NCBI GenBank assembly: GCA_964016885.1
Contig: OZ024742.1
Location: forward strand, 267,034,001-267,098,000
Length of the DNA: 64,000 nucleotides
Direction of reading: 5' to 3'
Source: Eledone cirrhosa
Taxonomy: Eukaryota
The notes under the pieces were generated by a model that saw only the letters and a list, made by a program, of their open reading frames with translations, was not told the origin of the DNA and searched no databases. Below are positions 34,162 through 52,197 of the stretch, in pieces. Position numbers and translations under genes: made by a program. How positions within the stretch are numbered: position 1 is the first letter of the stretch; every line of letters begins with the position of its first letter.

Positions 34162-35010
34162 CGTTATTTCGGGTTGAATCGGAGGTAACCACAGTAAGTA
34201 AGGTACTCAATACATAGCAGAGTATAAAAGTTTTAATATAGATGAGATTCTACAGGACTAGAACTGTTTCATTCTTTAGAAATCATCAGTAATCTGGGTA
34301 TCAAAAAATAAAAATGGTATTTATAGGTCTCTACAAGTGGTAGGAGAGGGTGGGGAGTGTGATGGGTGTAGGTCATTGGTTGATAGAAAAGGGAATTCAA
34401 CAAAGCTATAGTTTATTTTTATTTATTTATGTTTTTAGAGTAACAAAGGCAGACAGAATTCTATAAACAGGTTCCGGATGGCATACCATTCCTTGTCATT
34501 AAGTCTCTCTTCCCGCCGAGGTTGACTTTGCCTTTCATCCTTACGAGGTCGATAAAATAAAGTACCAGAAATGCACTGGGTTTTTGCTGGCATTGTGCCT
34601 AAAGTGGAAACAATTAAGTTTCTCTTAAGCTAACAGATGTCTATAAAATCAGTGGGGGGGTCGGTCATGGTAGATAGAATAAAAGAAAAGGGAGATTCTT
34701 TAAAAGCTAAAATCGTTAAGGTTCTACTAAGCGACAAAGGTTTAGAGAATTCTGTAAACAGATTCAAGATACTGAGTGCATATCTTACAATTATCTTCGA
34801 ACTTCTCTTAAACTAATCAACTATATGCCAAAAATCATCAGTCACATTCACAAAAAAACAAAAAAACATAAAAAAACATACTCACTCACACACTCACGCG
34901 CAACCATGAACACACATACACATACACAAAAACACACATAAGAACACACACACAAATATATAAATATATTTATATACATACATCTACACACACACACACA
35001 CACATATATA
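34162..35010 (-). mobile_element. pLTR-like HHR module, outer part of the left arm of a large inverted duplication
   Basis: 34229-35010 is the reverse complement of about 51545-52197. HHR at 34256-34294 reads GATTA-CTGATGA-TTTCT aa AGAAT-GAAA-CAGT-TC-TAGTC. Same family at 63638-63770. Confidence 0.85.
34512..34612 (+). mobile_element. 5'-truncated SINE with 14-bp TSD
   Basis: TSD attaagt(c/t)tctctt at 34498-34511 and 34613-34626. Absent from the paralogous arm near 51920. Confidence 0.9.
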
Positions 35011-35021
35011 TATATATATAT

Positions 35022-38000
35022 AATAAAAAATTGAACAGGGACAGAACAGAGAGGCAGTACGACAAATGTTTATTAGATTCACGCTCGGGAGAGTGGGGGG
35101 TAGGTGGAGGACGACGTTTCGGGCATAAGCCCTTCTTCAGGTAAGAGTTCAAAAGGTGTGTAGGGGAGTGGTGGAGAGACATATAGCGAAAGGAAACGGT
35201 GCGAATGAAAAATTAACAAATAAAGACAAAAATATAATAAATAATAAATAAAAATAAAGCATGATCAAAATACAAGGAATGAGAACATTTAAAAATAAAG
35301 GCATGATCAAAATAAACTGAAATTAAAAGGGGGGTAAACAGGTGGTGGAAGGGTGTGGGGTGAGTAGAGGTGGAGGCGGGTGGAGTGGGGAGAGGGAGAC
35401 GGGGTGTCCGAGCGGGGAGGGCTGAAGGTGGTGTGTGTGGTTAGGTGTGCGTGTGTGTGTGTGTGTGTGTATGTGAAACTGAGGGTTGGGGGAAGAACGG
35501 GGTTGCATGTTCAGGAAGGTGTGTGTGGGGGGTGTTTTTGTGTGTCGGAGGGTCTGTGCGTGTGTGGATAGGGGGTGGGGGGAGAGGAATCAGGGGGCTG
35601 AGGGTGTAAATATGTGGTGGGAAGCACGTGTGTGTGGTGGTTTAAGCGTGTTGTGGGTGTGGGTGGCGTGTGGATAAAAAAAATTTGTTTGGGGATGTGT
35701 GTGTGGGTGAGTTATATAGGTGATGGTGTTAGAGGATGGTTGAAAGTGGTAAGTTACACGGATGTATGGAGATTTGGGTTGGAAGTCAAAACGTGTGTGT
35801 GTAATCCAAGAAGCGGTGGTCGGAAGAGGAGAGATGTGGGGTGCGCGCGCAACAGGAAGTGGTCAGCAGTGGAAGTGCTGTGGTCAGTTGGTGCTGAGAC
35901 AGTGGTCGGAAGGGCATAGCAGCAGTCAGCGGAATGGTAGGGAGGCGAGGATGGGTAGGTGTGAGAGTTGGAGTGAGGAGGGTGTGTGTGTGTGTGTGTA
36001 TTAGTAGGGGTGTTAGTGGGATGAGTGAGTGTGGAGTGGGGAGAGAAAGGTGTGTGTGGTTCTATGGAGGGAGTGTGGTGTACTGGTGCGTGTGTAGTTT
36101 GGTGAGGAGGTGTTAGTGGGTGTTAGTAGACGGGAGGTGGGGAGGGGTGGAATTCAGGTGTGAGTGGGGGTTAGTGGGGGTAGGGTGTGTAGAGTTGGTG
36201 GTGTACGAGGGTGTGTGGGTACGTGTGCGTGGGGTTGGAGGGTGTTAGTGATGTTAGTTGCGTGTGGGGTGGGTGGTGTGAGTGTGTGCGTGTGATAAGG
36301 AGGGGGGAGGAGGAGAAGAGGGGAGGGAAGGGATGTTAGTATGTTAGTTGGGGAAGGGTGGTTAGATGAGGGGTGGAGTGGAGGTGGTAGTATTGTTAGT
36401 GTGGGGTGGGCGGTGAAAAGGAGGGGTGTGTTAGTGGTGTTAGTGGGGGATAAGTGGGGGAGGGGGGCGGTCGAACGCTAAAGGAATAAGGGTGGGGAGT
36501 TCAGGCCGGGGGGAGTGTGGGTCTGTAAGAGGAAGATAGTACGTTGTTCGACCGTGAGGCGATGGGCGGGTGTTCCGTGGCACTGGAGTAGGCCACAGAC
36601 TGTGAGATGGTGTGCGGAGTGTCCAAGGCCACCAAAGTGGCGGGAGATGGGGGAACTGCCCCCGAGACGAATGTCCCGGAGGTGCTCTGTGACTCGGTCC
36701 GCCAGGCGGCGTCCCGTCTGTCCGACATAAGTCGCGCTGCACCTCGTGCAACGAAGTCCGTAGACTAGGTTGGAGGAGGTGCAGCGGAAGGCATGCCGGA
36801 CCGAGAGAGGGTGGCCGTTGGGACCCTGGAAGGTGGTGGTGTTGGTGATATGGGGACAGGTGTTGCAGCGGGGCCTAGAACAGGGGAAGGAACCGGGGGG
36901 GAAACGGAGCGTGGGTTGGGGGGTAGGGAGCTGTGGACGAGGAGGGTGCGGAGATTGCGTGCGCGTTTGAAGGAGGGGAGTGGTGGGGTTGGGAAGATGT
37001 GGGAGGTGGAGGGGTCGGACTGGAGGTGTCGGAAGAGGCGGCGGATGGTGCGGTGGAGGGGTAAGGTGGAGGGGTGGTAGGTGATGGGGAAGGGGAGACG
37101 GTGGGTGGGTGTGCGGTGGCGTGGGGTGAGGGTGGTAGAGCGGGGGATAGCACGGGCGCGGGTGAGAGCGGTGTCGACGAGAGAGGGGGGGTAACCTCTG
37201 CGGATGAAATGGCTGACTAGGGAAAGGGCTTGGGACTCGAAGTCAGCATCTCGGCTACAGAGGCGGCGGATCCTGAGAAGTTGGGAGTAGGGAATGGAGA
37301 GTTTAGTGTGGGTGGGGTGGGAAGAGGTGAAGTCGAGGTAAGAGTGAGAGTCGGTGGGTTTGAAGAAGGCGGAGGTGACGAGGGAGTGGTGGGAGGGGTC
37401 GAAGGCGACGGAGATGTCCAAGAAGTGGACGTGGGTGGTGGAGATAGAGGTGGTGAAGTGGAGGGAGGGGTGGAAGGAGCAGAAGAAGGAAAGAAAGGAG
37501 TCGAGCTGTACTCGGGTGAGGGTCGTGGGTCCGATACAGTCGTCAATGTAACGACCGTACAGTTCGGGCGTGGGGCCGGTGTACTGGGCAAAGATTTGGG
37601 CCTCAACATGGCCAACAAAAAGGTTGGCATAGTTCGGGCCCATTCTTGTGCCTATGGCTACCCCCGTGACCTGTTGGTAAAACTCACCCGAGAAGGAGAA
37701 ACAATTTAGGGTGAGGACCAGCTCGGCGAGGCGAAGGAGGGTGGGGGTGGAGGGAATGGGGGAGGGGCGAAGGTCGAGGTAGTGTTTGAGGGCGCGAAGG
37801 CCGTCGGCGTGGGGGATGACGGTATAGAGGGACTTGATGTCTAGGGTGAAGAGGAATGGCTGAGGGCCGGGTAGGTAGGTGAAGGAGTCGAAAAGGCGCA
37901 GGGCGTGGTTGGTGTCAGAGATGTGGGAGGGGAGGGTGGTGACAAGAGGGGCGAGGAGGGAGTCGAGAAAGGCGGAGATGAGTTCGGTGGGGCAGTTGCA

Positions 38001-50508: not shown

Positions 50509-51544
50509 ATTGAAAGACTTCGCCAGGTGGTGCTATTAAGTTAGACATGGCCTGGGCCAATACTGGCCAAAACATTTCAAAGTTATTCAAAGTTATTCAA
50601 AGTTATATGTATGTATATATATATGTATATATATATGTATATGTGTCTATATATATATATATATATATATATATATATATATATATATATATATATATGT
50701 ATGTATTTGTACGTATGGTGATTTTTCTTTATATATGTGTATATGTGTGTGCGTGTGTGTATATATATATATATATATATATATATATGTATGTATGTGT
50801 GTGTGTGTGTATGTATATGTATATATTTGTTTATGTATGTATGTGTGTATATATATTTATATATATTTATATATATATATATATATATATATGTGTGTGT
50901 GTGTTTGTGTGTATGTGTATGTATATGTGTATATGTGTGTGTAGGTGTATTGTGTATATAAATATATATATATATGTATATGTATATGTATGTGTATGTG
51001 TATATATATATATATATATATATATATATATATATATATGTGTATGTGTGTGTATATGTGTATATGTGTGTGTAGGTATATTGTGTATATATATATGTAT
51101 GTGTATGTGTATGTGTATGTGTATGTATATGTGTGTATATATATATATGTGTATATATATATATATATATATATATATATGTATGTATATCTGCATATAT
51201 GTGTATACATGTGTATATATGTATATATCTATGTGTATTTATGTGTTTTTGTATACACATGTATATTTGTGTTTGTATGTGTATGTGTGTGAGTGTATTT
51301 ATATGTGTATATGTGTGTGTGTGTGTGTGTGTGTATATATATGTATGTGTGTGTATGTATATGTGTGTGTATATGTAGGTGTATGTATGTGTGTGTATAT
51401 ATATATATATATATATATATATATATATATATATATATATATATATATATATATATATGTATATATATATATATATGTGTATATATATATATATATATAT
51501 ATATATATATATATATATATATATATATATATATATATATATGT

Positions 51545-52197
51545 GTGTGTGTGTGTAGATGTATGTATATAAATATATTTATATATTTGTGTGTGTGTTC
51601 TTATGTGTGTTTTTGTGTATGTGTATGTGTGTTTATGTTTGCACGTGAGTGTGTGAGTGAGTATGTTTTTTTATGTTTATTTGTTTTTTTGTGAATGTGT
51701 CTGATGATTTTTGGCATATAGTTGATTAGTTTAAGAGAAGTTCGAAGATAATTGTAAGATATGCACTCAGTATCTTGAATCTGTCTACAGAATTCTCTAA
51801 ACCTTTGTCACTTAGTAGAACCTTAACGATTTTAGCTTTTAAAGAATCTCCCTTTTCTTTTATTCTATCTACCATGACCGACCCCCCACTGATTTTATAG
51901 ACATCTGTTAGCTTAAGAGAAACTTAATGACAAGGAATGGTATGCCACCCGGAACCTGTTTATAGAATTCTGTCTGCCTTTGTTACTCTAAAAACATAAA
52001 TAAATAAAAATAAACTATAGCTTTGTTGAATTCCCTTTTCTATCAACCAATGACCTACACCCATCCCACTCCCCACCCTCTCCTACCACTTGTAGAGACC
52101 TATAAATACCATTTTTATTTTTTGATACCCAGATTCCCGATGATTTCTAAAGAATGAAACAGTTCCAGTCCTGTAGAATCTCATCTATATTAAAACT
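51545..52197 (+). repeat. Outer part of the right arm of the large inverted duplication
   Basis: Reverse complement of 34229-35010 without the SINE. HHR copy at 52132-52170 has a mutated core (CCGATGA). Confidence 0.9.

What the first reader, a model, noticed from the sequence alone, without database searches (positions are those of the whole stretch)
34229..52197. Hidden ~18-kb inverted duplication whose arms record different later insertions
34229-35010 mirrors 51545-52197. The match continues through the irregular microsatellite patchwork: 38455-38640 with 51040-51400, 39645-39990 with 50700-51000, and 40080-40390 with 45790-46075. The left arm alone has the SINE (34512), the Poseidon PLE (35022-38336) and the tandem HHR unit (38667-39644). 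The right arm alone has the CR1/L2-group LINE (46091-50603). The outer ends carry outward-facing HHRs and a one-sided tail (34162-34228). It looks like an originally ~2-kb-armed fold-back element inflated by nested insertions into its own TA/CA tracts.
Basis: seen in the sequence. Interest (0 to 1): 0.75.

Follow-up and report, generated by a model that had tools for sequence, protein, structure and literature searches.

The report
Penelope retroelement carrying its own landing pads
The 18-kb mirror repeat is two back-to-back end pieces of one Penelope-type jumping gene, likely pasted in together, whose long TA/CA-repeat tail region later took in seven younger mobile elements; this is a known kind of insertion, but an unusually complete record of one.

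Summary
The inverted duplication is real. With inserts removed, the arms are 97.3% identical over 1,810 aligned bases. The patchworks score 103-241 against each other and at most 47 against unrelated patchworks.

It is not a DNA fold-back element. Both arms are 3' ends of an abundant autonomous Penelope-like family with Hydra-clade motifs: at least 4,654 tailed and 3,501 tail-less ends. Its 2.1-3.1-kb 3' UTR is a microsatellite patchwork. The tailed copy runs 34162 to about 45357 and the tail-less copy about 45358-52197, head to head with no spacer. The apparent spacer is three more nested hammerhead elements.

Seven inserts make up 12.8 of 18.0 kb. The 'Poseidon' insert has a Neptune-type linker. 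Two markers occur only in these two arms genome-wide, so both come from one template. In a chromosome sample, 18 of 20 head-to-head pairs are one tailed plus one tail-less arm.

Inverted pLTRs with a one-sided tail are textbook for Penelope-like elements, and this scan found the footprint before on other DNA of this genome. It is a new member of a known kind.

The parts
34162..45357 (-). Left arm: tailed, 5'-truncated copy of PLE family A (3' UTR only; 2,865 bp without inserts)
   Evidence: inner end approximate because it lies in a TA tract
34162..34228 (-). 3' tail (66-67 nt), absent from the right arm; ends at a (TA)n tract
   Evidence: the same tail follows the pLTR end in 18 of 30 loci printed (plus one partial tail); the other 11 run into (TA)n
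34245..34295 (-). Type I hammerhead motif of family A (CUGAUGA...GAAA; predicted cut 34251/34250); one stem-I mismatch
   Evidence: core scan; stems read by eye; MFE folding did not recover the fold
34498..34626 (+). 5'-truncated SINE (34512-34612) with a 14-bp target-site duplication (34498-34511 / 34613-34626), left arm only
   Evidence: 14-bp gap; reads skip 115 bp, 14 letters fit both sides; related copies at 7223, 19268, 59550
35022..38336 (-). 5'-truncated PLE with RT (YIDD), CX4CxxC linker, GIY-YIG-type endonuclease motif with CCHH-like residues, two frameshifts, HHR core at 35140; Neptune-type rather than Poseidon; inside a TA tract
   Evidence: no Pfam hit
38667..39644 (-). Retrozyme-like tandem (591-bp unit plus 387-bp identical partial copy) with a U3-A8 variant hammerhead and long stem II
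   Evidence: U3-A8 covariation described in PMC4209133
40473..42690 (+). Nested element B: tail-less inverted arm 40473-41044, tailed arm 41045-42690 (65-nt tail); arms 0.53% diverged; about 0.28 kb of host patchwork missing at the site
   Evidence: stretched HHR-like core at 42526/40572
43107..43699 (-). Nested element C: perfect head-to-head pLTR pair with a 56-nt tail on the left; HHR cores at 43365/43497
   Evidence: a PLE ORF lies upstream of the same end in L031
43722..44833 (+). Nested element D: arms 43722-44156 / 44309-44743 (0.46% diverged), about 90-nt tail on the right; HHR cores at 43814/44651
45343..45375 (.). Inversion junction of the host element, inside a (TA)n tract
   Evidence: exact base ambiguous
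45358..52197 (+). Right arm: tail-less, 5'-truncated inverted copy of family A (2,327 bp without the LINE)
46091..50606 (+). Near full-length young APE-RT LINE (from about 46101; ORF2 1045 aa stop to stop; 10-mer tandem 3' end), preceded by about 10 bp mirroring the flank; family targets TA tracts
52131..52181 (+). Right-arm hammerhead motif with a U4-to-C core change (likely inactive)
34386..34415 (-). Private marker 1 (15-bp deletion junction), shared only with 52011-52040
   Evidence: 2 matches genome-wide; 2,556 undeleted
40086..40108 (-). Private marker 2 (patchwork rearrangement junction), shared only with 46048-46070
   Evidence: 2 matches genome-wide

Best explanation
The locus is a head-to-head pair of 5'-truncated copies of one Hydra-type Penelope-like retrotransposon, likely inserted in a single event into a (TA)n tract and later enlarged from about 5 kb to 18 kb by seven nested elements. 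Shown: family identity, arm boundaries, one tailed plus one tail-less end, a shared private template, the inserts and their flanks. Inferred mechanism (about 55%): the GIY-YIG endonuclease breaks both strands in (TA)n and each DNA end primes reverse transcription on RNA from the same donor. One end starts at the tail end and the other 66 nt inside it. The two cDNA 3' ends then join through self-complementary (TA)n. The element's 3' UTR holds dozens of TA tracts, so each long copy would lay down new targets for TA-seeking PLEs, retrozymes and LINEs.
For: (1) An RT (YRDD) plus C-terminal GIY-YIG-type ORF lies upstream of the same patchwork and pLTR in other copies. (2) There are two fixed end classes, both against (TA)n: 4,654 and 3,501 exact matches, reversed-pattern controls 0. 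(3) 18 of 20 head-to-head neighbours within 20 kb are tailed plus tail-less; random placement gives a mean of 0.87 such pairs, maximum 5 in 2,000 trials; binomial P 1.8e-4. (4) The arms share 8 subfamily variants and a 15-bp deletion, and two junction patterns found nowhere else (2 matches each). (5) Host arms are 1.95% diverged and inserts 0-0.53%, as the nesting order predicts. (6) In 6 of 44 pairs the tail-less arm is over 20 nt longer (L048 by about 3.2 kb, L019 by 340 nt), which simple self-copying of one cDNA cannot make. (7) In vitro, a PLE protein cuts and extends both strands and starts at two sites bounding the tail (PMC11167929). (8) 8 of 17 arms with an intact ORF-to-end span carry nested inserts (L042's ORF anchor may belong to another family). 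An uninterrupted patchwork has 40 TA runs of 5 or more units.
Against: The tailed arm is longer in 22 of 44 pairs and the arms end within 20 nt in 16 of 44. This coupling and bias fit fold-back as well or better. Some junctions sit on small palindromes or on hammerhead stem I (L057, L066). One tailed-tailed pair was seen (L081). Sharing of private markers is simplest if one arm was copied from the other. It discriminates weakly, because a neighbouring subfamily motif has only 5 genomic matches, so a donor without other surviving progeny is plausible. No TSD or empty site could be identified in the TA flanks. MFE folding does not recover the hammerhead (z -0.2 and -0.8). The nesting rate was not compared with a genome-wide control.
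Confidence: 0.9

Rival explanations
1. Same element, different step: one cDNA made from the tail folds back at a self-complementary TA tract and copies itself, and the hairpin is resolved at the tail-less position. Probability refers to this mechanism step.
For: Tailed arm longer in 22 of 44 pairs and near-equal in 16; this locus has the longer tailed arm; two private markers in both arms; palindromic junctions; self-priming proposed in PMC3846280.
Against: 6 of 44 pairs have a longer tail-less arm, one by about 3.2 kb, which needs an extra asymmetric deletion. The tail-less end is nearly as common as the tailed end and is fixed to within a base or two, matching a second RT start site (PMC11167929).
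Confidence: 0.35
2. Two independent insertions of the family landed near each other, or one arm arose later by local inverted duplication or gene conversion.
For: The family has thousands of copies, and short copies nest inside longer ones (L067, L069, L083). Conversion can homogenise inverted repeats.
Against: Two genome-unique markers about 1.4 kb apart in the element are in both arms. The arms abut head to head at one junction with the tailed/tail-less pattern of 18 of 20 pairs. The SINE, 100 bp from marker 1, was not converted.
Confidence: 0.05
3. A DNA fold-back or MITE-like transposon with long terminal inverted repeats.
For: Long inverted arms in TA target tracts.
Against: The ends are asymmetric (tail); copies are variably 5'-truncated; arms lead into a reverse-transcriptase ORF in other copies; hammerheads sit at the ends; there is no fixed internal segment.
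Confidence: 0.02
4. Assembly artefact (chimeric fold-back read).
For: Palindromic chimeras are a known long-read artefact (recalled); no spanning read was seen.
Against: The arms differ at 1.95% of sites and by different inserts and deletions. An artefact would give near-identical arms.
Confidence: 0.02

Closest known systems
Hydra clade of Penelope-like elements, including Hydra-1_Obim (Craig et al. 2021, PMC8557442; passages, the Hydra section and supplement excerpts read)
   Same: RWR (for RWK), DKT, YRDD, CxCX5C linker, CxxC and CxH motifs at the end of the endonuclease, no canonical CCHH, hammerhead in the 3' end, (TA)n target. By eye, the protein is colinear with the Hydra alignment in the supplement.
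   Different: Hydra elements are described as generally under 3 kb (Hydra-1_Obim 2,507 bp). This family has a roughly 2.2-kb ORF plus a 2.1-3.1-kb microsatellite-patchwork 3' UTR. It is a different family from Hydra-1_Obim (different hammerhead and protein).
Inverted-pLTR Penelope insertions with an optional tail (Arkhipova et al. 2013, PMC3846280, passages read; Craig et al. 2021 Fig. 2 legend)
   Same: An inverted 5'-truncated copy adjoins the 5' end, the tail is on one end only, and junctions are head to head with palindromes.
   Different: Arms are 2.3-2.9 kb rather than about 0.2 kb, the tail is 66 nt rather than 30-40, and there is no discernible TSD.
Poseidon PAc in vitro mechanism (Frangieh et al. 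2024, PMC11167929; parts 1-2 of 4 read)
   Same: Two RT start sites bounding the tail; cleavage and extension of both strands at AT-rich DNA; predicted dimer.
   Different: Different clade. In the parts read, the paper does not account for inverted arms.
L1 twin priming (recalled, not read)
   Same: Two priming events give a 5' inversion.
   Different: L1 arms do not overlap, whereas here both arms copy the same 3' end.

Membership tests
Penelope-like elements (EN+) | Single ORF with PLE-type RT and GIY-YIG endonuclease | tested here: met
   Seen in other copies of the family, judged by motifs; absent from this 5'-truncated locus
Penelope-like elements (EN+) | Inverted 5'-truncated copy and one-sided tail | tested here: met
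Penelope-like elements (EN+) | Hammerhead motif in the 3' end | tested here: met
   Core and three stems by eye; not the MFE fold
Penelope-like elements (EN+) | Hammerhead self-cleavage | not testable with these tools
   3 arms in short pairs stop at -21/-22, the predicted cut; suggestive only
Hydra clade | RWK and DKT motifs | tested here: met
   RWR and SDKT in L040 against the definition
Hydra clade | CxCX5C linker; CxxC and CxH around the conserved E/N; no CCHH | tested here: met
   CNCLNKEAC, CDLC and CMH motifs; no CxxC in the GIY-YIG core
Hydra clade | (TA)n targeting | tested here: met
Hydra clade | Short length (generally under 3 kb; descriptive) | tested here: not met
   ORF about 2.2 kb plus 2.1-3.1-kb UTR
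Hydra clade | RT phylogeny | not tested
   No reference proteins held as sequences; compared by eye with supplement excerpts
Penelope/Poseidon (insert 35022-38336) | No Zn-finger-like linker between RT and EN | tested here: not met
   CX4CxxC linker present; definition
Neptune (insert 35022-38336) | CX2-5CxxC linker plus CCHH endonuclease | tested here: met
   by motif; no tree
DNA fold-back transposon / MITE | Symmetric terminal inverted repeats at fixed ends, no RT | tested here: not met
CR1/L2-group LINE (insert 46101-50606) | APE plus RT ORF2 and tandem-repeat 3' end | tested here: met
   clade within the group not tested

The most novel reading that the evidence does not exclude
A Penelope family builds its own niche: it carries 2-3 kb of its own (TA)n target in its 3' UTR, spreads landing pads for a whole guild of TA-seeking elements and is a real source of this genome's microsatellite load. 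Its paired arms also record double-ended target-primed reverse transcription from one donor RNA, giving an in vivo mechanism for the unexplained inverted-pLTR structure.
Probability: 0.3. Interest if true: 0.55.

Novelty: new member of a known kind. Interest (0 to 1): 0.3.

Why it matters
How PLEs form inverted arms with one tail is stated as open in PMC8557442. This family offers thousands of natural products with long, marker-rich arms, so twin priming and fold-back can be told apart statistically. At this locus each arm also preserves the empty site for the other's inserts. The practical lesson for annotation is that microsatellite masking hides the longest part of the element and splits one 5-kb insertion into unrelated fragments. 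The locus itself has no sign of host function.

Tried and rejected
Rfam at gathering threshold: 0 matches in the window. Pfam: only the LINE ORF2 hit; 6 of 7 proteins, including all PLE frames, had none. MFE folding of the family-A hammerhead: not better than shuffles. A strict hammerhead regex found nothing; a core-only scan found 20 cores. Sequencing runs: only short contigs and RAD reads from many family copies, so the locus structure is neither confirmed nor denied. A composite donor (A already carrying B) was considered because L041 and L042 have B next to the A patchwork; rejected because the junctions differ and the right arm lacks B. A TSD or continuation of the left flank on the right was not found. 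In one search L029 was given the wrong strand and its row is void. Look-ups of earlier findings by sequence and by words returned nothing. Paper searches found no report of a microsatellite-patchwork UTR in a PLE, nor of twin priming for PLE arms. The library lacks most subscription papers and Repbase/Dfam were not available. PMC13282606 and PMC3124438 (passages) and the retrozyme preprint 10.64898/2026.07.22.740005 (part 1 of 5; its supplements were not read) added nothing specific.
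Full report
1. Observation. Self-BLAST gives the outer arm matches at 97.6-97.9%. After removing the inserts by coordinate, the arms align colinearly through the patchwork with 1,761 matches and 49 mismatches. They score at most 36, 41 and 47 against 10 unrelated window patchworks and at most 41, 61 and 50 against 15 shuffles. The duplication is real.

2. What the arm is. The unique 508 bp of the arm has 3,279 candidate hits in the own genome; 40 were scored, with full-length hits at 94-96%. Copies end either with a 66-67-nt tail or at a fixed earlier base, and both ends meet (TA)n. 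Exact patterns count 4,654 tailed and 3,501 tail-less ends. The microsatellite patchwork is part of the element. [quoted passage not shown] The uninterrupted distance from ORF end to pLTR end is 2.1-3.1 kb. The motifs RWR, DKT, CxCX5C, CxxC and CxH, the lack of CCHH, the hammerhead and (TA)n targeting match the Hydra clade of PMC8557442. By eye the protein is colinear with the Hydra alignment in its supplement. An earlier scan note naming Hydra-1_Obim prompted that supplement look-up. No tree was built. The host is probably an octopus, which I infer from genome size and repeat content and did not determine.

3. Anatomy. Against a natural copy (L034), the left arm continues through 42691-43106 and 44834 to about 45357, and the right arm begins at about 45358. 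Those two segments score up to 158 and 160 against family copies and at most 35 and 57 against unrelated patchworks. The copies therefore abut head to head in a TA tract. The host is 5,192 bp (2,865 + 2,327) and the seven inserts total 12,844 bp. Left arm: a SINE with a 14-bp TSD, a Neptune-type PLE, a retrozyme-like tandem with a U3-A8 hammerhead, and three head-to-head hammerhead elements B, C and D, each with a one-sided tail. Right arm: a young APE-RT LINE that also targets TA. Six of the seven inserts sit in TA tracts. Arm divergence is 1.95% for the host and 0.53, 0, 0.46 and 0% for B, C, D and the tandem, consistent with the nesting order. The left arm has also lost 172 bp at 38560 and about 0.28 kb at the B site.

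4. One event, one template. I used the listed positions over the first 96.3 Mb of C1: 100 tailed ends, and 84 of the 100 listed tail-less ends (the rest lay beyond the tailed list). Of 20 head-to-head neighbours within 20 kb, 18 are tailed plus tail-less; chance gives 0.87. The two exceptions (L067, L069) look like short copies nested in longer ones. A later batch held one tailed-tailed pair (L081). The window's arms share 8 subfamily variants and a 15-bp deletion. The deletion junction matches only these two arms, against 2,556 undeleted copies. A looser pattern gave 21 hits, the other 19 being different single-site variants. A second junction pattern also matches only the two arms. As a caveat, a neighbouring subfamily motif has only 5 matches, so the subfamily is small.

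5. Mechanism. Each arm reads like a cDNA primed from its own side of a break, starting at one of two fixed sites. This fits PMC11167929, where a PLE protein cuts and extends both strands and starts at two sites bounding the tail. I tallied 44 pairs including this locus, with extents read by hand from BLAST and approximate inside the ORF. The tailed arm is longer in 22, the arms are within 20 nt in 16, and the tail-less arm is longer in 6. Left out were L052 (duplicate), L060b, L067, the outer copies of L069 and L087, L070, L081, L090, L092 and the L003/L004 pair; L089 is the least certain inclusion. A longer tail-less arm cannot be copied from the tailed cDNA, and a tail cannot be copied from a tail-less cDNA. 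I therefore favour double-ended priming on RNA of one donor (about 55%). The bias, the near-equal arms, the palindromic junctions and the private markers keep fold-back (PMC3846280) at about 35%. This locus alone fits both. The landing-pad reading rests on 40 TA runs in one uninterrupted UTR and nested inserts in 8 of 17 measurable arms, with no genome-wide control.

6. Known versus new. Inverted 5'-truncated copies with a one-sided tail, hammerheads and microsatellite targeting are described PLE features. Earlier unreviewed notes of this scan report the same twin-arm footprint and Hydra-type families on other DNA of this genome; they are not counted as support. What I did not find in four paper searches is a PLE with a multi-kilobase microsatellite-patchwork UTR, or a count of the one-tail rule and arm asymmetry. 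Repbase, Dfam and subscription papers were not searchable. Long-read confirmation was not obtained.

7. Verdict. A real feature with the observation confirmed and the interpretation partly supported. It is a new member of a known kind. Interest 0.3.

Noticed in passing
window 46101-50606: Very young, abundant APE-RT LINE (best of 1,670 candidate hits score near-identical). Its 3' end abuts TA-rich microsatellite in all 5 other loci and all 8 (overlapping sets). The upstream frame has two CCCH-like motifs after a poly-Q stretch and an in-frame stop near 46643.
   Followed up: partly
window 46075-46104; L103: The LINE 5' junction is a 30-bp palindrome made by about 10-15 bp mirroring the flank; L103 has a short inverted copy of the LINE's own 5' end.
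   Followed up: partly
window 38735-38835 and its copy near 39325-39425 (-): Hammerhead-like fold with a U3-A8 core and a stem II of about 55 nt in a 591-bp retrozyme-like unit.
   Followed up: partly
window 32318-34161: Another hammerhead (CUGACGA) tandem/inverted array with a 441-bp unit directly flanks the host on the left.
   Followed up: no
window 52222-53374: 312-bp hammerhead tandem followed by a 670-bp near-perfect palindrome that shares a roughly 55-bp motif with the left flank (34075-34130).
   Followed up: no
window 63634-63770: Short tailed solo copy of family A.
   Followed up: no
window 10104-14383: Longer copy of family C with a PLE ORF and N-rich low-complexity insert; the intact-looking relative is in L031.
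   Followed up: no
L051-L066: Short arms cluster at -56 to -65 (5' edge of the hammerhead) and at -21/-22 (predicted cut site), suggesting the ribozyme sets truncation points.
   Followed up: partly
G000:C1:83678397-83691831: About 13 family-A ends in a tandem array with roughly 1.08-kb spacing.
   Followed up: no
L081: Head-to-head pair with tails on both arms, an exception to the one-tail rule.
   Followed up: no
L051 and L052: The same insertion with its flank occurs twice in inverted orientation 0.9 Mb apart on C1 (segmental duplication or assembly duplicate).
   Followed up: no
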